NCBI RefSeq assembly: GCF_046290335.1
Contig: NZ_JBKAGH010000009.1
Span: 65,869-129,868 of the forward strand
DNA from: Ilumatobacter sp.
Lineage (GTDB): Bacteria > Actinomycetota > Acidimicrobiia > Acidimicrobiales > Ilumatobacteraceae
Length of the DNA: 64,000 nucleotides
Direction of reading: 5' to 3'
Shown here: positions 1 through 7,673 of the stretch, piece by piece
How positions within the stretch are numbered: position 1 is the stretch's first letter
How the letters are laid out: the number at the start of each line of letters is the position of its first letter
Notes under the pieces: model-generated
Database searches by the model: none
What the model was told of the DNA's origin: nothing
The model's input: the letters and a program-made list of their open reading frames with translations, nothing else
Program-made: the position numbers and the translations under genes

Positions 1-603
1 GAGGGACTCGAGGAGGGGGGCGAAGGAGTGGACGGGGGCGCTGCGGAGCGTTGAGTCCTTGGCGAGGTCGTCCCAGCGACGGAGGTCGGCGGCCGCGGCC
101 GCACCGTCGAGGGAGCGAAACGCCTCGACTTCGTCAGGATCCATCGGGCCGCCCTGCACGACGAGGCTTGCCACCGATGCCGGCGACAGCGTCGAGTGAT
201 ACGCGTCGTCGACCGCACACAGGTACCGCTTCGCGTCGACGTGGAGGCGGATGGGCTCGGTCACGGCCTTCGGGAACCATGACGACAAGAAACGCGCCGC
301 CACGTCCTCGTGATGCAGATCCCGTTCGAGAAAGTCCGGGCGATCGTCGTGCTCGTCGAGCAGCAGATGGCCGAGGTCGTGTAGTAACGCCGCCGCGACG
401 AGTTCGTCGGACGCACCGGCAGCTCGTGCCAGTTCAGCGGTCTGCACTGCATGCTCGTTCTGCGTGACGGCCTCGTCGTAGTGTTCGCCGCCCTTGGCCT
501 CGAACACGGCGATGATCCGGTCGACGAGGTCGTCGACCTCGGTGATCTGTCGCCAAGGGGTCGCGACCGCGTCGCGAGCGGTCTCGCGGACAGGATCGCT
601 CAC
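1..603 (-). CDS. phnZ: HD-domain phosphonate dioxygenase PhnZ-like; 3' end runs off the window, absent from the ORF track
   Basis: Hand translation from GTG at 603 (GTGA overlap with the upstream stop) gives 201 open codons: EHYDEAVTQNEHAVQ...LLHDLGHL...HHED...LHVDAKRYL...RRWDDLAK, matching the PhnZ di-iron ligand pattern. Confidence 0.88.
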   Translation of the reverse strand, partial: MSDPVRETARDAVATPWRQITEVDDLVDRIIAVFEAKGGEHYDEAVTQNEHAVQTAELARAAGASDELVAAALLHDLGHLLLDEHDDRPDFLERDLHHEDVAARFLSSWFPKAVTEPIRLHVDAKRYLCAVDDAYHSTLSPASVASLVVQGGPMDPDEVEAFRSLDGAAAAADLRRWDDLAKDSTLRSAPVHSFAPLLESL

Positions 604-1424
604 GAGAGCGCTCCGATCTCGCGGAGTTGTTCGACGGTCGGTTCGATCCCGTCGAACCCACCCACCGTGCTCACCCGAGTCGATGGCGCACCGGTCTCGG
701 CGAAATACCGGAGCTTGTCGGCGTAGTACTGCTCACGCAGGTCGCCCTCGCGTGCGGCGTTGTAGGTACAGAACAGCGCCCGGCGCGTCGTCGACGTGAG
801 ATTCGGGCCACTGCGATGCGGAGCGAGCGAATGGAACCACAGCAGATCTCCGGCTCGCATCGGCAGCGCCAGCCAATCGAGACCCACCGCCACGTTCGGA
901 TCGACGCAACCGTCACCGTCGTCGGGCAGCAGCTCGTCGTGCAGACCGGCGACGGCTTCGAGGCAACCGTTGTCGAGCGTGGCATCGTCGATCGCCACCA
1001 TGCACGTGAGATGCATGTCGACGAACTTGTACGCCGGCGCATCCTGGTGGGCGATGAAACCCGCCCCACCCGACAGCTTGTAGTTGATCTTCTCCTTGTA
1101 GAGCACGATCGGTTCGCCGAGCAGACGCCCGCCCATCTCGACGAGCGTGCCCTGCGCGATCAAGTCCCGGAAGCCGCCGTGATCCAGCAGGTTCTCGGAA
1201 CGTGCGATCTGCGGGCCGGCGTCGCCGACCTCGTAGTGCTGCAGCAGACCGCCGTCGCCGTACGGCCGAGTCGCGACGTCGTCGACCCACGACCGCAGCT
1301 CGGCGAGTCGATCGGCGTCGAACACGCCAGGGACATGAAGAAATCCGTCGCGCCGCCACGCGTCGACGTCGAGTTCAACGGCTGGTGCCTGACCCTGGGT
1401 GTTGGGGGTGGTCGAGATGCTCAT
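600..1424 (-). CDS. phnY: PhyH-family Fe(II)/2-oxoglutarate dioxygenase, PhnY*-like phosphonate hydroxylase
   Basis: Start at MSISTT (ATGA overlap with phnM stop). Motifs LYKEKINYKLSGGAGFIAHQDAPAY (HxD), NGCL, distal HRSGPN and RRALFCTYN. Directly upstream of phnZ. Confidence 0.82.
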   Translation of the reverse strand: MSISTTPNTQGQAPAVELDVDAWRRDGFLHVPGVFDADRLAELRSWVDDVATRPYGDGGLLQHYEVGDAGPQIARSENLLDHGGFRDLIAQGTLVEMGGRLLGEPIVLYKEKINYKLSGGAGFIAHQDAPAYKFVDMHLTCMVAIDDATLDNGCLEAVAGLHDELLPDDGDGCVDPNVAVGLDWLALPMRAGDLLWFHSLAPHRSGPNLTSTTRRALFCTYNAAREGDLREQYYADKLRYFAETGAPSTRVSTVGGFDGIEPTVEQLREIGALS

Positions 1425-2692
1425 GAGATGAATCCTTCTGCGAGCGTGTTCGAGGACAGTGTGCCTGCCAGCGGTCGATCGGCGACACCGGCTTGGCTGA
1501 CGACGAGACGGACCGTCGGAATCGATCCGTGGAACTCGACGACGGCGATGTCGCCGCGATAGCCGGCTTCCAGACGGCCTCGATCGGTGAGGCCGACCGT
1601 GTCGGCGGGCCCGAACGTGACGAGGCCGACGGCCGTGGCCAGATCGCAGACACCGCGATCCACCAACGCTGCAACGGCACCGAACAACGTCGACGGCAGA
1701 TAATCGGAGGCGAGGACGTCGCACAGGCCGAGCCCCACCAGTTCACGCGCGCTCACGTTGCCCGAATGGCTCTCGCCGCGCAACGCGTTCGGCCCACCGC
1801 ACACGATCGGCAATCCGTGCTCGCGCGATGCTCGTGCGGCCACGACAGTAGTCGGGAACTCCGAAATGGTGACGCCGCTCTCGAGCGCCTCGTCGATCTC
1901 GTCCACCTCTGCGGGGTCGTGGCACATCAGCCGGATCTTCGACGCCAGTGCCTGCTCGGCCAGCCAGGGAACGGCCCGGTCGCGCTGACCGAGTTGGGCT
2001 TCGCGTGCCTCGAGAATGTCGTCGATGTAGGACTCCGAATCCTCATCCGACAGGCCCTTCACGTCGGCGACGTAGCGCTCGTACCAGCGACGATCGGCGT
2101 ACTGGCCGCGTCCCGGCGTGTGGTCCTCGTACGAGACGAGTGGCGACTCGGCGTGCAGTCCGTGCGAGCGATCGAGGTCGCCGGCACTTCCGGGTATCAG
2201 GTCGGCGAGGCGGTCCTGTAGGCCGGCCAGACCGTCGGCGTCGCGCACGTCGAGTCGATGCAGGATCCGGTGGTCGACGATGGCGCGCCCCGACCGGGCG
2301 ATGCCGTCGATTGCGGCGCACATGGCCTGCGCCTGCTCGACGGAGCGTTCGTACTTGGCTCCGTTCTCGAAGCCGATGCCGTGGTACACGGTGGTGACCC
2401 CGGCGCCGCGGACTCGACCTTCGAACGAGCGCAGCGCGAACTCGATCGGAAGCTCGACGCCGGGCCGTGGTCGCAACTCCTTCTCGAGGCCGTCGGAATG
2501 GAGGTCGATCGCTCCGGGCACGGTGACCGCGCCGCGGGCGTCGATGGCATCACTCGGCCGAGCGGCTCCGGTCGAGACCTCGACGATGAAGCCGCCTCTG
2601 ACGACCACGGTCGCGTCGTGGAGCACTCGATCGGGCAGCACCGCTGTCGTGTTGACGATGGTGAAGTCGGTGGGGGTGGGGACGGTGTTCAT
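1421..2692 (-). CDS. phnM: Alpha-D-ribose 1-methylphosphonate 5-triphosphate diphosphatase
   Basis: Amidohydrolase fold with PGAIDLHSD, SYEDHTPGRGQY, CHD, SEFPT, GGPNALRGESHSGN, LASDY; position in the phn operon. Confidence 0.93.
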   Translation of the reverse strand: MNTVPTPTDFTIVNTTAVLPDRVLHDATVVVRGGFIVEVSTGAARPSDAIDARGAVTVPGAIDLHSDGLEKELRPRPGVELPIEFALRSFEGRVRGAGVTTVYHGIGFENGAKYERSVEQAQAMCAAIDGIARSGRAIVDHRILHRLDVRDADGLAGLQDRLADLIPGSAGDLDRSHGLHAESPLVSYEDHTPGRGQYADRRWYERYVADVKGLSDEDSESYIDDILEAREAQLGQRDRAVPWLAEQALASKIRLMCHDPAEVDEIDEALESGVTISEFPTTVVAARASREHGLPIVCGGPNALRGESHSGNVSARELVGLGLCDVLASDYLPSTLFGAVAALVDRGVCDLATAVGLVTFGPADTVGLTDRGRLEAGYRGDIAVVEFHGSIPTVRLVVSQAGVADRPLAGTLSSNTLAEGFIS

Positions 2693-3474
2693 CAGCGGGC
2701 GACTCCGGTCAGTTCGGGAAGGACGAGGGATGGGGGTCCGGTGCGGACGATGCGACCGGCGTCCATGAGCGCGACGGCCGAGGCGAGACGCGACATCGCG
2801 TCGAGGTCGTGGAACACCGACAGCACGGCGACACCGAGATCGGTCAAGTCGGCGATCAAGGCGAGTGCAGCGTCGCGATTCGTCGGATCGAGCGCCGACA
2901 CCGGTTCGTCGAGCAGCAGCAGCCGAGGTGGCGACACGGTGCCCGCAGCGAGATTGACCCGCTGCTTCTCCCCGCCCGACAGCACGCTCGCGTACACATC
3001 CCAGAGGGACTCGTCGAGTTGCAACCGCGACAGTGCGTCGGCGGCAGCGTCTCGAGCGTCGGCTCGGTCGATGCCACGGAACACCGCTGCGCGCATCACG
3101 ATCTCGATCGGCGAGCGCCGAGGCTCCGGATGCAGGAACTGCGACACGTACCCCAACTCACGGCCCCGCAGCAGCGCCATCTCGCGATCCGGCAACGCTG
3201 CGATGTCGACGATCTCACCCATGCCGAGTCGCAGCTCGACCGATCCCGCAGACGGGAGGTAGGTGCGATAGATGCACTTCAGCAACGACGACTTGCCGGC
3301 CCCGCTCGAACCAGCGAGCGCCACGTGCTCGCCCGGGTGGACGTCGAGATCGACGCCACGCAAGCCCTCGACGACGCGGCCGTCGACGTTGTGCATCACG
3401 AACTGCTTCTCGAGCCCGGTGACACGCAGCACCGGTAACGGTAACGATGCGCCGTCGGAGAGATGCACGCTCAT
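2692..3474 (-). CDS. phnL: C-P lyase ABC-type ATPase PhnL
   Basis: Start MSVHLS at 3474 (ATGA overlap). Walker A GSSGAGKS, CIYRTY, YVSQFL, LSGGEKQRVNLA, LLLDEP. Confidence 0.92.
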   Translation of the reverse strand: MSVHLSDGASLPLPVLRVTGLEKQFVMHNVDGRVVEGLRGVDLDVHPGEHVALAGSSGAGKSSLLKCIYRTYLPSAGSVELRLGMGEIVDIAALPDREMALLRGRELGYVSQFLHPEPRRSPIEIVMRAAVFRGIDRADARDAAADALSRLQLDESLWDVYASVLSGGEKQRVNLAAGTVSPPRLLLLDEPVSALDPTNRDAALALIADLTDLGVAVLSVFHDLDAMSRLASAVALMDAGRIVRTGPPSLVLPELTGVAR

Positions 3475-4316
3475 GCTCGTGCCGCCGCGACCAGACGCTG
3501 GCTGTACGGGTGGATCGGATCTTCGAAGAGTTGGTCGGTCAGACCACGCTCCACGACCCGTCCGTGGTGCATGACGAGACACCTCGTCGTCAACATGTCG
3601 ATCACTCCGAAGTCGTGGGAGACGACCACCGCAGCCAAGCCGAGGTCGTCGAGCAGGTTGCGGATCAGGTCGAGTACGCCGGCGGCAACCGACGCGTCGA
3701 GGCCGGTCGTCGGCTCGTCGAGCAGCACGAGCACCGGATTGTTCGCCAACGCTTTCGCCAACTGGACGCGCTGACGCATCCCGCCGGAGAACTCGCGCAC
3801 GAGATCGTCCATACGGGTGATCGGCACCTCCGTCTTGTCGAGGAGGGCCGCTGCCCGCGCTCGGATGTCGCCGAAGTGTCGCCATCCGGCAGCGGTGAGT
3901 GGCTCGGCGATGTTGCCGCCGGCCGTGATCCGCATGTCGAGTCCTTCGGCCGGGTCCTGGTAGACGATCGACAGGTCGTCGATGCGCAAGGCTCGGCGCT
4001 CGGCGGGCGACAGTCGGAACAAATCGGTCATCCGGCCGTCGTGGCGGCGCAACATCGCGGTGCCGCTGGTCGGCTCCAGGTCACCGGCGATGCAGCGCAT
4101 CACCGTCGACTTGCCCGAACCGGATTCGCCGATCAGCCCGATCGCCTCGCCGGGTGCGACGTCGAACGACACGTCCCAGGCGGCAACGATCGTGCCCGTC
4201 GGGCCGTGCTTGGCCGTGCCGTGTTCGGGCCCGGTCTGCTCGATCGCCTCGGGTGACAGACGTCCGAAGACCCTGCCCAGCCCCTCGACGCGCAGCACGT
4301 CGTCGGACCCGCTCAT
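3471..4316 (-). CDS. phnK: C-P lyase ABC-type ATPase PhnK
   Basis: Start MSGSDD at 4316 (ATGA overlap). GESGSGKS, YQDPAEGL, FSGGMRQR, LDEPTTGLD, C-terminal DPIHPYSQRLV. Confidence 0.92.
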   Translation of the reverse strand: MSGSDDVLRVEGLGRVFGRLSPEAIEQTGPEHGTAKHGPTGTIVAAWDVSFDVAPGEAIGLIGESGSGKSTVMRCIAGDLEPTSGTAMLRRHDGRMTDLFRLSPAERRALRIDDLSIVYQDPAEGLDMRITAGGNIAEPLTAAGWRHFGDIRARAAALLDKTEVPITRMDDLVREFSGGMRQRVQLAKALANNPVLVLLDEPTTGLDASVAAGVLDLIRNLLDDLGLAAVVVSHDFGVIDMLTTRCLVMHHGRVVERGLTDQLFEDPIHPYSQRLVAAARA

Positions 4317-5290
4317 CGCGCCACCCCGTTCTGATCGTCGTGCCCGTTCTGATCGTCGTGCCCGTTCGGCTCGACGTGTTCGTCGGTTCTCGGCGTGGCG
4401 TCCACTCGCTGCCGTCGACACCACGAGGTGTCGCTGCACACCCACCGGTCGCCGCTCGCACCGGGTATGGCAACGAGGTACGACTCGGTCGTTCCACATC
4501 GTTCACACGCCGCGCCGTCGGTGCGCTCGACCTCGAAGGGGACGTCGTCGAACGTCATCGGCACCACGTCGGTGTCGGGCGGGATCGCGTAGATCCGCTT
4601 CTCCCGACCGGCGCCGAACAGCGACAGGAATGGTGCGTGATGCAGGCGGGGGATGTCCCAGCGAGGGATCGGCGTGGTGGCGACGACATAGCGACCACCC
4701 ACCAGGCACGGATACCCGGTGGTCTGGGTGATCACGCCGTTGCGGACCTTGTCCTCGTACAGGCTCACCCACATCTTCGAGTAGTCGGCCTCGGCGTGCA
4801 TCCGGGCGAGTTCGCGCATGTCCCGCTCGACGCCGCGCAACGGCTCGGGCACCGGCACCTGCAAGATGAGGACCTGCCCGTCGCCCAACTCGTCTTCCGG
4901 GATGCGGTGCCGAGTCTGGATCAGCGTCGCTTCCTCCGGCTCGGAGGTCTCGGTCGCGCCGGTCGCGCCCATGACGAGGCGTCGCAGGTTGACCGCGTTC
5001 ACGCCCTCGTCATCGCCCTGGTCGATGACCTTGACGCAGTCGTCGGCGCCCGCGAGCGCCAGCGTGATCTGCAACCCGCCGGACCCCCAGCCGCGAGCGA
5101 CCGGCATCTCCCGCGATCCGAACGGCACCTGATACCCGGGGACGGCGACGGCGGTGAGCACCGCTCGACGGATCTCGCGTTTGGCGTCGTCGTCGAGCAC
5201 GGTCTGCCCGCGAGCCGGGCCGACGAGATCGGCGACCCGGGTCGGCGTCTCGGCGACGGTCGGTGCGTCGTCGGGTGCGATCAGCGTCAT
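4313..5290 (-). CDS. phnJ: Alpha-D-ribose 1-methylphosphonate 5-phosphate C-P lyase (radical SAM)
   Basis: Start MTLIAP at 5290 (ATGA overlap). PGYQVPFGSREMP, RGWGSGG, QTRHRIPE, FGAGREKRIYAIPP, Cys cluster CERC-x19-C-x5-C. Confidence 0.95.
   Translation of the reverse strand: MTLIAPDDAPTVAETPTRVADLVGPARGQTVLDDDAKREIRRAVLTAVAVPGYQVPFGSREMPVARGWGSGGLQITLALAGADDCVKVIDQGDDEGVNAVNLRRLVMGATGATETSEPEEATLIQTRHRIPEDELGDGQVLILQVPVPEPLRGVERDMRELARMHAEADYSKMWVSLYEDKVRNGVITQTTGYPCLVGGRYVVATTPIPRWDIPRLHHAPFLSLFGAGREKRIYAIPPDTDVVPMTFDDVPFEVERTDGAACERCGTTESYLVAIPGASGDRWVCSDTSWCRRQRVDATPRTDEHVEPNGHDDQNGHDDQNGVAR
4325..4367. repeat. 18-bp tandem repeat (about 2.4 copies) in the phnJ 3' end, encoding NGHDDQ units
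   Basis: cccgttctgatcgtcgtg twice, then cccgttc. Confidence 0.85.
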
Positions 5291-6468
5291 GCCGACACCT
5301 GCGCTTCCTGTGAGCGTGCGTGCGGTGAGACGTCGTCCTGCACGAGTGGGCGACGGTCGAGCGGGCCGCGAGCCGCGTCGCGGACCGCCATCTTTCGTTC
5401 GACCATCGAACGGAACGTCACGTAGTGCGGCAGCTTGAGATGCTCCAGGAACCCCGTCGCGTCGAGGCCGTCGGTGGTCAAGAGGAGCGACTGCTCGAGT
5501 TGGCTCCGGCCGGCGTCCCGGTGACATGCGATGTCGAGATTGGCCATTGCGATCGCCTTCTTCTCGTTGTGGCCGAGACACATGCCGTAGCCGACGTCGA
5601 AGCGGGCACGATCCTCGTCGGCCCCGTCGAGGTCCTCGATCGCCTCCACCTCGGTCACGCGTACCGATCCGATCGCGACCGGCTGGCCGGTCATCGGGTG
5701 CTCGACGCGCACCGGGAGACGGCCGTGGCGCACCTCACCGAGCGTGATCTCGTGGAGGTAGCCGTCGGGTCCGAGGATGTTGCGGTACCAGAGGTTGACC
5801 AGCGCCCCCGTCTCCGCTCGTGCCATCACGGCGAGTCGCGCCGAGCGCGGCGCCGGCGGGCGCACGGCCCGTCGGGTGATGTCGAACGGCTCTGGATCGT
5901 CGGTGCGGCGGCGGTCGACGACGAGTTCGAGGTCACGCAGCAGGTCGAGCAGCCGTGAGGGGCGACGATCGATCGCCGCGTCGACGGTGTCCGTGCTGTC
6001 GACGGTGTCGGTGACGGGGCGATGCGGGGCCGACGCGTCGCGCGTCGAGGGTTCGACCATCTGCACCGGAGGATCGAGATCGAGGAGCCGCCCGCTGTAG
6101 TCGGACGTGCGCCCCAACAGTTGTGGGCCGGGCGGTTGTTGATAGGCCGGCACGACACGACGCAGCACCTCGAGTTCGTCGGCATCAGCGACATCGGAGT
6201 ACTCGAATCGCGGCATCGTCGAGCGATGGGCCCGCAGCAGATGCGCCGCCTCGATGGTGTCGCCTTCGGCTTGACGGAGCGCCGCGGCGGCCAGCTCAGG
6301 GTCCCACAACCCGCCTTCGCCCATCACCCGATCGACGGCGGCGCCGAGCCGCTGCGTGATCTGGTCGTCGCTGAGCGGGGTCGAACTCGCCGACTCCCGC
6401 TCGCGCCGGATCAGCGACTCGGCAGCGACGATCGCGTCGCGGCCGCCACGCGCTGCTACGTAGCCCAT
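5287..6468 (-). CDS. phnI: C-P lyase complex subunit PhnI
   Basis: Start MGYVAARGG at 6468. VMGEGGLW, RRVVPAY, LARAETG-like MARAETG, GHNEKKAIAMA, GFLEHLKLPHYVTF. Confidence 0.93.
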   Translation of the reverse strand: MGYVAARGGRDAIVAAESLIRRERESASSTPLSDDQITQRLGAAVDRVMGEGGLWDPELAAAALRQAEGDTIEAAHLLRAHRSTMPRFEYSDVADADELEVLRRVVPAYQQPPGPQLLGRTSDYSGRLLDLDPPVQMVEPSTRDASAPHRPVTDTVDSTDTVDAAIDRRPSRLLDLLRDLELVVDRRRTDDPEPFDITRRAVRPPAPRSARLAVMARAETGALVNLWYRNILGPDGYLHEITLGEVRHGRLPVRVEHPMTGQPVAIGSVRVTEVEAIEDLDGADEDRARFDVGYGMCLGHNEKKAIAMANLDIACHRDAGRSQLEQSLLLTTDGLDATGFLEHLKLPHYVTFRSMVERKMAVRDAARGPLDRRPLVQDDVSPHARSQEAQVSA

Positions 6469-7148
6469 CAGCGTGCTCCTTGGGCGAGACCGATCGAACA
6501 ACTCCGCGGGATGGCGACGACCGTGCCGTCCGGCGCCACGACCCACGCGTCGACGCCAGCAGGAAACGAGCCGTTGAGCGCCGACACGAACTCGAGCACC
6601 GTGCGATCGAGCCCCGCGAGCCCCACGATGCGTCCGTCCGAGGCCCCGGGCCCCGTCACTCGCACGTACAGCACCGGATCGTCAGGTCGGAGCTCGTCGT
6701 CGGAGGCCGCGACGTGGATGTCGTCGCACGCAACGAACAACTTGGCCCCACGCTCGGGCTCGTGGTGGTTGCCGACACGCAACGCGAGCAGGTCACCGGA
6801 GGTGGTGCCCGCTCCGGCGAGCACCAGGTCGGCGGCGGCGACGTCGCTGGTCAGCCGAGCGCCTGTCGAGCGGGCGATTCGACGACCCAGTCCGAGCGCG
6901 TCGTGTTCGTCCGTCATCCGGTCGACACCGACGACCGCGACGGTGACGTCGATGTCGGCGAGCGAGAGCAGGGGAAGCGCGACCATCGGCAGATCGCCCG
7001 TTCGAAGATCGCCCACTCGAATGTCGTCGCCGTTGTCGAGATCGAGCGAGAACGGCCGGCCCGGGTGGGACACCGCGTCGAGCAACGTCCGGAAGACGGA
7101 GAGGGAGGACTCGGGCGTGAGCCGCGGCGCAGGGAACGCAGAGGTCAT
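6468..7148 (-). CDS. phnH: C-P lyase subunit PhnH
   Basis: FRTLLDAVSHPG, EPERGAKL, VTGPG, FPAGVD, AIPRS; lies between phnG and phnI. Confidence 0.88.
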   Translation of the reverse strand: MTSAFPAPRLTPESSLSVFRTLLDAVSHPGRPFSLDLDNGDDIRVGDLRTGDLPMVALPLLSLADIDVTVAVVGVDRMTDEHDALGLGRRIARSTGARLTSDVAAADLVLAGAGTTSGDLLALRVGNHHEPERGAKLFVACDDIHVAASDDELRPDDPVLYVRVTGPGASDGRIVGLAGLDRTVLEFVSALNGSFPAGVDAWVVAPDGTVVAIPRSCSIGLAQGAR

Positions 7149-7149
7149 C

Positions 7150-7590
7150 TCAGTCCAGTTCCTCGAACGTCACGCGGGTCGGAGCGAGTGCAGCCCACTC
7201 TGCGTGCGCCTCGTCGGCGAGTCGCGCCTCCACCCGGTCGCACAGGTCGGCCACGGCCTCGCTGCCGCCGTCGAGTTCGGCAGCAGCGTCGCACAGGGCA
7301 GCGGCGACCGCTGCACCTCGGTCGCAGCCGAGCCGCATCGACCATCCCGCCGAACCGAGCCACATCACCTCGGCGCGGCTCACGACCACCTCGCCCACAT
7401 GGAACCGATCGCGACACACCGGTTCGCGCACTTGCAGCATGACGAGCCCGGTCTCGGGTGGGGAGGTGACGGTCGGAGCGCCGAGTCGTCCGAGCAGGTC
7501 GTCGGCGACCTGCTCCAGCTCGGTGGCCGCCGCGAGCGACAACAACTCGGCACGACGCTCTCTGGTTCGGGCGAGGGACACTTCGTTCAT
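7150..7590 (-). CDS. phnG: C-P lyase subunit PhnG
   Basis: PETGLVMLQVRE, FHVGEVVV, C-terminal PTRVTF; first gene of the operon. Confidence 0.9.
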   Translation of the reverse strand: MNEVSLARTRERRAELLSLAAATELEQVADDLLGRLGAPTVTSPPETGLVMLQVREPVCRDRFHVGEVVVSRAEVMWLGSAGWSMRLGCDRGAAVAAALCDAAAELDGGSEAVADLCDRVEARLADEAHAEWAALAPTRVTFEELD

Positions 7591-7613
7591 GCACCGAGCG
7601 TGCCAGCGCCAGG

Positions 7614-7625
7614 TTGTCTAGACAA
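7614..7625. promoter_or_regulatory. Perfect palindrome TTGTCTAGACAA, putative GntR/HutC-subfamily (PhnF-type) operator
   Basis: 12-bp palindrome just upstream of the phnG start; fits the HutC-subfamily GT-N-TA-N-AC core. Confidence 0.65.
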
Positions 7626-7629
7626 GTAA

Positions 7630-7673
7630 TCCAGGTGAAGTCTCGGCGACGAGTGCCTGAACTCTCGGCGATG
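7630..7673 (-). promoter_or_regulatory. PHO-box-like array of 11-bp direct repeat units upstream of phnG
   Basis: Minus-strand units CATCGCCGAGA / GTTCAGGCACT / CGTCGCCGAGA / CTTCACCTGGA; a 14-bp repeat recurs at 22-bp spacing. Resembles the streptomycete GTTCACC unit. Confidence 0.5.

What the first reader, a model, noticed from the sequence alone, without database searches (positions are those of the whole stretch)
1..1424. Oxidative PhnY*/PhnZ pair hard-wired onto the end of a C-P lyase operon
Seen: phnM-phnY*-phnZ are joined by ATGA and GTGA start/stop overlaps, continuing the chain of overlaps that runs from phnH onward. Known: C-P lyase (radical SAM, releases hydrocarbon) and PhnY*/PhnZ (O2-dependent) are independent C-P cleavage chemistries. 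Inference: one transcript supplies both routes, either switching with oxygen or substrate, or with PhnY*Z handling aminoalkyl/hydroxyalkyl phosphonates that the lyase handles poorly. For methylphosphonate this would set the methane versus formate outcome.
Basis: partly seen in the sequence, partly recalled or inferred. Interest (0 to 1): 0.65.

Follow-up and report, generated by a model that had tools for sequence, protein, structure and literature searches.

The report
Oxidative PhnY*/PhnZ pair inside C-P lyase operon
An Ilumatobacter-type actinobacterium carries two different ways of breaking carbon-phosphorus bonds in one tightly coupled gene string, a layout kept across a whole clade of related freshwater and marine bacteria, so counting their lyase gene alone may mis-state how much methane they make from methylphosphonate.

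Summary
On the minus strand, phnM, a PhyH-type Fe/2-oxoglutarate dioxygenase (600-1424) and an HD-domain gene (1-603, ending 17 nt beyond the window) are joined by ATGA and GTGA overlaps. These end an unbroken chain of junctions of 1 nt or less from phnG.

The HD protein passes the curated PhnZ-family model. It has all six di-iron ligands and the family's fifth His. The dioxygenase has the HxD...H...R motif and matches only the PhnY* model.

Neither protein reaches the curated cut-off of a characterised enzyme, so the substrate is unknown.

The pair is not at the end of the cluster, because phnF-phnDCE follow it.

The same order, with the same 4-nt phnM/phnY* overlap, recurs in at least 12 other Acidimicrobiia assemblies. 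Three of these carry Y* and Z as one fused ORF. The PhnY* and PhnJ+K trees agree, which indicates long co-inheritance.

In 7 of 8 sampled species with a C-P lyase, the phn cluster holds a PhnZ-like HD gene. In three of them it is a lone, divergent HD gene overlapping phnM. None has PhnP or PhnN.

Most likely this is a parallel oxidative route that shares importer and regulator with the lyase. It is a new variant of a known kind, of moderate interest.

The parts
1..603 (-). phnZ-type HD-domain di-iron oxygenase gene. GTG start at 603; the last 5 codons and the stop lie 17 nt beyond the window start. Complete length 206 aa (L008 12603..11983).
   Evidence: TIGR03276 scores 215.3 bits against a cut-off of 214.6. 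PDB matches: TmpB 6npa 4.8e-31 and PhnZ 4mlm 7.5e-22, over the full length. The ligands H51, H75, D76, H98, H121, D178 and the fifth His H79 align.
600..1424 (-). phnY*-type PhyH-family Fe(II)/2-oxoglutarate dioxygenase gene, 274 aa.
   Evidence: PF05721 scores 87.4 bits. NF052437 scores 258 bits over model positions 9-255 of 260, below its 500-bit cut-off. H126-x-D128, H203 and R214 are invariant in the family alignment and align with PhyH-type structures.
1421..2692 (-). phnM (ribosyl-phosphonate triphosphate diphosphatase).
   Evidence: NF011984 scores 300.7 bits against a cut-off of 260.
2692..3474 (-). phnL
   Evidence: The best NCBIfam hit is TIGR02324. The K/L junction is ATGA.
3471..4316 (-). 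phnK
   Evidence: The best NCBIfam hit is TIGR02323, 226.9 bits.
4313..5290 (-). phnJ (radical-SAM C-P lyase subunit).
   Evidence: PF06007 scores 383 bits.
5287..6468 (-). phnI
   Evidence: PF05861 scores 328.5 bits.
6468..7148 (-). phnH
   Evidence: PF05845 scores 82 bits.
7150..7590 (-). phnG
   Evidence: PF06754 scores 85 bits.
7612..7625 (-). TTGTCTAGACAACC, a candidate HutC/PhnF-type operator about 28 nt upstream of the phnG start.
   Evidence: The box occurs once in the 5.5-Mb genome. It is conserved, exactly or nearly so, upstream of phnG in L049, L054-L056, L058 and L059. Binding is inferred, not shown.
7636..7671 (-). Two direct copies of TCGCCGAGA(G/C)TTCA, proposed as PhoP-like boxes by another first-stage note.
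   Evidence: The sequence was read. Its function was not tested here.

Best explanation
The two genes encode a PhnY*/PhnZ-type two-step oxidative C-P cleavage module. The PhyH-type Fe(II)/2-oxoglutarate enzyme hydroxylates the carbon bound to phosphorus of a phosphonate. The HD-domain mixed-valent di-iron oxygenase then cleaves the 1-hydroxyphosphonate with O2 into phosphate and a carboxylic acid. In a clade of Acidimicrobiia (Ilumatobacteraceae and kin) this module has become a fixed, translationally coupled part of the phosphonate operon phnGHIJKLM-Y*-Z-phnF-phnDCE. It is therefore made together with the radical-SAM C-P lyase. It is fed by the same PhnDCE importer and controlled from the same phnG promoter region, which holds a unique conserved PhnF-type box and PhoP-like repeats. 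The most likely logic is division of labour by substrate. The cheap oxygenase route would take the phosphonate(s) that PhnY* accepts, and 1-hydroxyphosphonates directly. The costly lyase, which here lacks PhnO, PhnP and PhnN, would take the rest. What is shown: gene order, the overlaps, family membership, intact catalytic residues, conservation, fusions and co-phylogeny. What is inferred: enzyme activity, co-transcription, the substrate (methylphosphonate/hydroxymethylphosphonate and 2-aminoethylphosphonate about equally likely, others possible) and the physiological rationale.
For: Overlaps and SD-like motifs. No terminator-like site between phnG and phnZ. The HD protein passes TIGR03276; its best PDB relatives are TmpB and PhnZ, with all ligands and the fifth His. 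The dioxygenase matches only the PhnY* model strongly and has the HxD...H...R motif. The pair is an autonomous, obligately coupled module: about 65 loci hold it without a lyase, and fusions occur in both orders. The same embedded order is found in L049, L050, L052-L059, L140-L142 and G139. The embedded PhnY* proteins form a clade (SH-aLRT 99) that the PhnJ+K tree mirrors. L065 shows phnDCE-Y*-Z, so linkage of the pair to the importer recurs on its own. The conserved, genome-unique box lies upstream of phnG.
Against: TIGR03276 is passed by only 0.7 bits. The equivalog cut-offs of the characterised enzymes are missed: 258/500, 187.5/300 and 161/300. The substrate loop reads Y-D-E, one residue shorter than the YxxE of PhnZ and TmpB (PMC8177086). 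A strong hairpin lies 13 nt after the phnZ stop (-45.8 kcal/mol for the 91-nt stretch folded, z -3.3), so phnF-phnDCE may be a separate unit in this genome. A route redundant with a broad-spectrum lyase needs a selective reason that is not demonstrated.
Confidence: 0.7

Rival explanations
1. The HD protein is a metal-dependent phosphodiesterase that stands in for the missing PhnP by opening 5-phosphoribosyl 1,2-cyclic phosphate. The dioxygenase would be an accessory of unknown role.
For: No PhnP or PhnN reaches its cut-off in the own genome or in 16 other Acidimicrobiia C-P lyase genomes. A PhnZ-like HD gene sits in 7 of 8 sampled clusters, and in G016, G024 and G032 it is alone and overlaps phnM. 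The H..HD..H..H..D motif also occurs in some bimetallic hydrolases (PMC11203657).
Against: The protein passes the oxygenase family model, has the family-specific fifth His and is closest to TmpB and PhnZ. It is always overlapped with or fused to a 2-oxoglutarate hydroxylase, including in about 65 loci with no lyase. Lack of PhnP/PhnN does not vary among these genomes, so it cannot be correlated with anything.
Confidence: 0.08
2. The pair works on intermediates of the lyase pathway itself. It would hydroxylate and oxidatively cleave 5-phosphoribosyl-1-alkylphosphonate, the PhnM product. That would give ribose 1,5-bisphosphate directly and bypass both the oxygen-sensitive PhnJ and the absent PhnP.
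For: The pair lies immediately after phnM with a conserved 4-nt overlap. A distinct lyase-linked clade co-evolves with PhnJ/K. PhnP and PhnN are absent throughout.
Against: Close relatives of the same family work as stand-alone pairs in genomes without lyase genes nearby. Known PhnZ and TmpB bind a free phosphonate across the two irons (PMC8177086). No residue evidence points to a ribosyl pocket. The operon keeps an intact phnJ.
Confidence: 0.06
3. The pair cleaves a non-phosphonate substrate (another C-X bond), and its place in the phn operon does not reflect phosphonate use.
For: Neither protein reaches any equivalog cut-off. Plasmid-borne relatives in Dietzia and Rhodococcus sit with MetE-like, 2OG-oxygenase and YaaH-transporter genes and no phn genes. 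Earlier notes of this scan argue that some marine PhnZ-like branches are not phosphonate enzymes.
Against: The position between phnM and phnF/phnDCE is conserved, with translational coupling, in more than 12 assemblies, and the pair shares its phylogeny with PhnJ/K. TIGR03276 is passed.
Confidence: 0.07
4. The pair is transcribed or translated separately, or is a decaying remnant.
For: There are no expression data. L049 shows frameshifted phnM and phnY*.
Against: There is no intergenic space for a promoter or terminator. All catalytic residues are invariant across 23 to about 70 homologues. The L049 frameshifts occur in one assembly and affect phnM as well.
Confidence: 0.03

Closest known systems
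PhnY*/PhnZ of uncultured bacterium HF130_AEPn_1 (2-aminoethylphosphonate to glycine plus phosphate; PhnZ structures 4mlm, 4n6w)
   Same: The architecture is the same: a PhyH-type 2OG hydroxylase followed by an HD-domain di-iron oxygenase, with overlapping genes. All six metal ligands and the catalytic fifth His are conserved.
   Different: The phmmer score to PhnZ is only 81.5 bits. The Tyr/Glu substrate loop is one residue shorter. The pair is embedded in a C-P lyase operon instead of standing with a transporter only. The substrate is unknown.
GmPhnY*/GmPhnZ1 of Gimesia maris and the Prochlorococcus MIT9301 pair (methylphosphonate to hydroxymethylphosphonate to formate plus phosphate)
   Same: These are the best-scoring specific NCBIfam models (NF052437 258 bits, NF052439 187.5 bits). 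Linkage to phnDCE is shared with Prochlorococcus (PMC3266647, PMC6581173).
   Different: Both scores are far below the equivalog cut-offs of 500 and 300. Ten diverse family representatives score the same 198-290 bits, so no special closeness is shown.
TmpA/TmpB of Leisingera caerulea (PDB 6npa for TmpB)
   Same: TmpB is the closest solved structure to the HD protein (4.8e-31, residues 25-202).
   Different: TmpA is a BBOX/TauD-type hydroxylase, not PhyH-type. The TmpB equivalog model scores only 161 of 300 bits.
PhoF-type fused PhnY-PhnZ enzymes (Fonsecaea multimorphosa; review PMC10574752)
   Same: In L057-L059 the embedded pair is one fused ORF of about 490 aa. Many fused relatives exist.
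   Different: The window's genes are separate and joined by a GTGA overlap. The fused forms here are bacterial and sit inside the lyase operon.
TIGR03276 'Phn-HD' proteins, and orphan phnZ in phnWX/phnWAY clusters (PMC8154272, PMC11203657)
   Same: The family was named for its association with phosphonate degradation operons. Source names read 'phosphonate degradation associated HDIG domain protein'. Lockwood et al. 2022 (PMC9381506) note in one sentence that a substrate-specific hydrolase gene can lie within a C-P lyase operon.
   Different: Those reports do not describe a complete hydroxylase-oxygenase pair translationally coupled to phnM, its clade-wide conservation, or the lack of PhnP/PhnN.

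Membership tests
PhnZ-type HD-domain mixed-valent di-iron oxygenases (TIGR03276) | The family HMM is matched above the curated cut-off. | tested here: met
   215.3 bits against 214.6, a marginal pass. The genome scan gives 215.2 bits.
PhnZ-type HD-domain mixed-valent di-iron oxygenases (TIGR03276) | Six metal ligands H...HD...H...H...D. | tested here: met
   H51, H75, D76, H98, H121 and D178 align with the ligands of PhnZ 4mlm and TmpB 6npa. They are conserved in about 70 homologues.
PhnZ-type HD-domain mixed-valent di-iron oxygenases (TIGR03276) | The fifth conserved His (PhnZ H62), the clade marker. | tested here: met
   H79 in HDLGH. Its role as clade marker is taken from PMC11203657.
PhnZ-type HD-domain mixed-valent di-iron oxygenases (TIGR03276) | The YxxE substrate-gating loop. 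| tested here: inconclusive
   The loop reads Y42-D43-E44. Tyr and Glu are present but spaced one residue closer, throughout the actinobacterial clade.
PhnZ-type HD-domain mixed-valent di-iron oxygenases (TIGR03276) | O2-dependent cleavage of a 1-hydroxyphosphonate. | not testable with these tools
   This needs an enzyme assay.
PhnY*-type phosphonate hydroxylases (PhyH fold) | A PhyH domain with the HxD...H iron triad and the 2-oxoglutarate Arg. | tested here: met
   PF05721 scores 87.4 bits. H126, D128, H203 and R214 are invariant and align with solved PhyH-type enzymes.
PhnY*-type phosphonate hydroxylases (PhyH fold) | Genetic coupling to a PhnZ-type gene. | tested here: met
   GTGA overlap here. 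A 4-nt overlap is the norm across about 70 loci, and fusions occur in both orders.
Methylphosphonate hydroxylase equivalog (NF052437, G. maris type) | Score at or above the 500-bit equivalog cut-off. | tested here: not met
   258.3 bits, the same range as 10 other family representatives. The protein is not filed as this enzyme.
Hydroxymethylphosphonate dioxygenase (NF052439) and TmpB (NF049941) equivalogs | Score at or above the 300-bit cut-offs. | tested here: not met
   187.5 and 161.2 bits.
C-P lyase operon (E. coli phnCDEFGHIJKLMNOP type) | The core genes phnGHIJKLM are present and contiguous. | tested here: met
   Pfam and NCBIfam hits for all seven genes.
C-P lyase operon (E. coli phnCDEFGHIJKLMNOP type) | The downstream enzymes PhnP and PhnN. 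| tested here: not met
   The best genome-wide scores are 27.9 bits (cut-off 272) and 24.2 bits (cut-off 156). Both are also absent in 16 related genomes.

The most novel reading that the evidence does not exclude
In Acidimicrobiia the PhnZ-like HD gene, with or without PhnY*, is not a parallel route but a working part of a PhnP- and PhnN-less C-P lyase pathway. It would act on a ribosylated intermediate: either oxidative cleavage of 5-phosphoribosyl-1-(hydroxy)alkylphosphonate, or opening of the cyclic phosphate product. That would explain why 7 of 8 sampled lyase clusters carry such a gene, in five of them (counting the window) overlapping or directly following phnM.
Probability: 0.1. Interest if true: 0.8.

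Novelty: new variant of a known kind. Interest (0 to 1): 0.45.

Why it matters
Surveys of the 'methane paradox' count phnJ as potential for methane release from methylphosphonate, and Ilumatobacteraceae are among the main phnJ carriers in at least one large lake (PMC10734540). If their operons always co-express an oxidative route, part of the phosphonate flux may go to formate, glycine or another acid instead of a hydrocarbon. The arrangement also gives a natural system for asking how a cell divides substrates between a costly radical-SAM complex and a cheap oxygenase pair. It also raises the question of how C-P lyase works without PhnP and PhnN. One public source names a carrier of the same operon Ilumatobacter fluminis, so a cultured strain may be at hand for tests.

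Tried and rejected
- Phylogeny against the characterised PhnY* proteins (HF130 ACU83549, G. maris, MIT9301 ABO17878): their sequences could not be fetched. As a substitute I scanned 10 diverse representatives from the 1.84-billion-protein search against NCBIfam. None reached the G. maris equivalog cut-off and all scored 198-290 bits. The 258 bits therefore says 'PhnY* family', not 'methylphosphonate type'.
- PhnP replacement by correlation: PhnP and PhnN are absent in every genome tested, with or without the pair, so there is no contrast to use.
- The 33-nt perfect palindrome after phnZ as a PhnF operator: rejected. It is not conserved in related operons. Its core is a dispersed repeat with at least 27 copies in this genome, so it is a REP-like element.
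- Importer specificity from PhnD: the closest solved proteins are PtxB and PhnD types at 88 bits or less, which is not informative.
- Horizontal transfer by base composition: GC is flat at 64-70% across the cluster and its flanks.
- The primary papers on PhnZ, TmpAB and GmPhnY*Z are not held.

Full report
**Observation**

The genes lie on the minus strand. phnM (1421-2692) ends in TGA at 1423-1421. The next gene starts with ATG at 1424-1422, giving TCATGAGC. That gene (600-1424, 274 aa) ends in TGA at 602-600, and the following gene starts with GTG at 603-601, giving TCGTGAGC. SD-like AAGGA and GGAG motifs precede both starts.

The whole string is tight: G/H has a 1-nt gap, H/I is TGATG, I/J, J/K and K/L are ATGA, L/M is TGATG, M/Y* is ATGA and Y*/Z is GTGA. 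The window cuts the last gene. In the genome (window = G000:C9:65869-129868) it is 206 aa.

**What the two genes are**

- **The HD protein** matches TIGR03276, 'phosphonate degradation HD-domain oxygenase', at 215.3 bits against a cut-off of 214.6. The G. maris hydroxymethylphosphonate dioxygenase model scores 187.5 of 300 bits and the TmpB model 161 of 300.
- Its closest solved structures are TmpB (6npa, 4.8e-31) and PhnZ (4mlm, 7.5e-22), aligned over the full length.
- H51, H75, D76, H98, H121 and D178 align with the six di-iron ligands, and H79 with the catalytic fifth His. The Tyr/Glu gating loop reads Y-D-E, one residue shorter than YxxE (PMC8177086).
- **The dioxygenase** is a PhyH-domain protein (PF05721). 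Its only strong NCBIfam hit is the methylphosphonate hydroxylase model: 258 bits over model positions 9-255 of 260, against a 500-bit cut-off. The next family scores 34 bits.
- H126-x-D128, H203 and R214 are invariant and align with PhyH-type structures.
- Ten diverse representatives of the family also score 198-290 bits on that model. The score therefore places the protein in the PhnY* family but says nothing about its substrate.

**Surroundings**

- Upstream are phnG to phnM.
- Downstream of the HD gene, on the same strand, are a GntR/HutC regulator (phnF-like), phnD, phnC and a fused double phnE. The pair therefore sits between the lyase genes and the regulator and importer genes, not at the end.
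- No terminator-like site lies between phnG and phnZ.
- About 28 nt upstream of the phnG start lies TTGTCTAGACAACC. It occurs once in 5.5 Mb and is conserved upstream of phnG in related operons. I read it as a candidate PhnF-type operator.
- Two PhoP-like direct repeats noted by another first-stage reader lie just upstream of the box.
- In the 93-nt gap between phnZ and phnF there is a perfect 33-nt palindrome that forms a strong hairpin (-45.8 kcal/mol for the 91-nt stretch folded, z -3.3). It is not conserved elsewhere. Its core belongs to a dispersed family with at least 27 copies in this genome, so it is a REP-like element rather than an operator. It could still attenuate read-through into phnF-phnDCE.

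**Relatives**

- A scan of species-representative genomes with a PhnY* profile gave 80 loci, nearly all from Actinomycetota and mostly Acidimicrobiia MAGs.
- Ten of them (L049, L050, L052-L059) have the identical order phnGHIJKLM-Y*-Z-GntR-phnDCE. So do three contigs carrying a 65%-identical protein that one source names Ilumatobacter fluminis, and genome G139.
- In all 9 readable phnM/Y* junctions the genes overlap by 4 nt. The Y*/Z overlap of 4 nt is the norm in about 70 pairs.
- In L057-L059 the two proteins are one ORF inside the operon. Fusions in both orders are common in the wider family.
- About 65 loci hold the pair with no lyase gene within 10 kb, so the pair is an autonomous module.
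- In a PhnY* tree the embedded copies, together with L081, L065 and L051, form a clade with SH-aLRT 99, apart from the stand-alone ones. A PhnJ+PhnK tree reproduces the inner groupings. The module has therefore been inherited with the lyase genes over PhnY* divergence down to about 55% identity.

**A wider pattern**

- C-P lyase is rare in the group: 6 of 61 family genomes and 4 of 401 class genomes have PhnJ. Five genomes of the same genus have none, so the cluster is accessory.
- Eight sampled species carry PhnJ.
  - G000 and G139 have M-Y*-Z.
  - G012 has HD-Y* upstream of phnG.
  - G442 has a divergent layout with Y*-like and Z genes.
  - G016, G024 and G032 have a lone, divergent PhnZ-like HD gene directly after phnM, with no PhyH gene beside it. 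It scores 125-132 bits on TIGR03276 and lacks the loop Tyr. In G016 and G032 it overlaps the phnM stop by 4 nt.
  - G059 is undetermined because its contig is cut.
- None of 17 genomes has PhnP or PhnN above cut-off.
- An earlier first-stage note (e1-5235548) reports the lone-HD layout in another genome.

**Mechanism**

The best-supported reading is a genuine hydroxylase-plus-di-iron-oxygenase route for C-P cleavage. It is co-expressed with the lyase and shares its importer and regulator. Division of labour by substrate is the likeliest rationale. Linkage of such pairs to phnDCE is known from Prochlorococcus (PMC3266647) and recurs here in L065.

Activity, co-transcription and substrate are inferences. 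Four rivals remain open at low probability each:
- the HD protein is a PhnP surrogate;
- the pair acts on ribosylated intermediates of the lyase pathway;
- the pair cleaves a non-phosphonate substrate;
- the pair is expressed separately or is decaying.

The constant presence of an HD gene in PhnP-less lyase clusters is the one observation that the parallel-route reading does not specifically explain.

**Known or new**

The chemistry and both families are known (PMC10574752, PMC8177086). The HD family was named for its association with phosphonate operons (source names; PMC11203657). Lockwood et al. remark in one sentence that substrate-specific genes can lie within C-P lyase operons (PMC9381506).

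I found no description of a complete PhnY*/PhnZ pair translationally coupled to phnM, of its clade-wide conservation, of its fused forms in the operon, or of the PhnP/PhnN-less context. I rate it a new variant of a known kind, of moderate interest. Its main value is for interpreting phnJ-based estimates of methane production in Ilumatobacteraceae (PMC10734540).

**Limits**

- The characterised PhnY* sequences and several primary papers were not available.
- The trees were 'quick' searches with SH-aLRT support only.
- Most relatives are MAGs. L049 has frameshifts in phnM and phnY*.

Noticed in passing
L008:11936-11968 (32-64 nt beyond the window start, between phnZ and phnF): A perfect 33-nt palindrome, ACGTCAATCTGGTGTCAGACACCAGATTGACGT. 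Its core TGGTGTCAGACACCA occurs at least 27 times in the genome with no more than 1 mismatch, often as pairs about 35 nt apart. It is a REP-like dispersed palindromic element family.
   Followed up: partly
window 7612-7625: TTGTCTAGACAACC lies upstream of phnG. It is unique in the 5.5-Mb genome and conserved upstream of phnG in related operons. It is a candidate operator of the cluster's GntR/HutC regulator.
   Followed up: partly
G000:C7:239490-240863 (L047 9491-10864, minus strand): A second PhnZ-like gene in the same genome. It is a 457-aa ORF with a weak, possibly degenerate PhyH-like N-terminal half and an HD half (TIGR03276 116 bits) interrupted by a DHDASFDHDASSDHDASFDH repeat. It lies next to ribosomal-protein and EF-Tu/EF-G genes, far from any phn gene.
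   Followed up: partly
L132 8759-9361, L133 4820-5380, L145 about 1498-2022: In three other Ilumatobacteraceae species, phnM is followed by a lone, divergent PhnZ-like HD gene with no hydroxylase gene beside it (in L132 and L133 by a 4-nt overlap). It keeps the metal ligands but has no loop Tyr. Its role is open: an orphan 1-hydroxyphosphonate oxygenase or a PhnP substitute.
   Followed up: partly
own genome and 16 related genomes: No PhnP or PhnN homologue above cut-off was found in any Acidimicrobiia genome with a C-P lyase. How the cyclic phosphate product is processed there is unexplained.
   Followed up: partly
L057, L058, L059: PhnY* and PhnZ are fused into one ORF of about 490 aa inside the lyase operon. 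L057 and L058 come from the same MAG, so that bin holds two copies or two strains.
   Followed up: partly
L138 (Dietzia sp. DQ12-45-1b plasmid pI) and L139 (Rhodococcus sp. NJ-530 plasmid): A PhyH-HD pair at 47-48% PhnY* identity on plasmids of cultured strains. It sits in a conserved block with a MetE-like gene, another 2OG oxygenase, a GPR1/FUN34/YaaH transporter, a PQQ propeller protein and a MurR/RpiR regulator, with no phn genes. It is annotated only generically.
   Followed up: no
G000 versus G028, G127, G131, G162, G384: The whole phn cluster is absent from five other genomes of the same genus, with no GC anomaly in the cluster. It is an accessory trait whose route of acquisition is unclear.
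   Followed up: no
L081 and L136 (G442): A third cluster layout. GntR-phnGHIJKLM lies next to an extra, divergent phnM-like gene, a PhnY*-like gene, phnDCE and a PhnZ gene. L081 also holds a second Y*-like/Z set.
   Followed up: no
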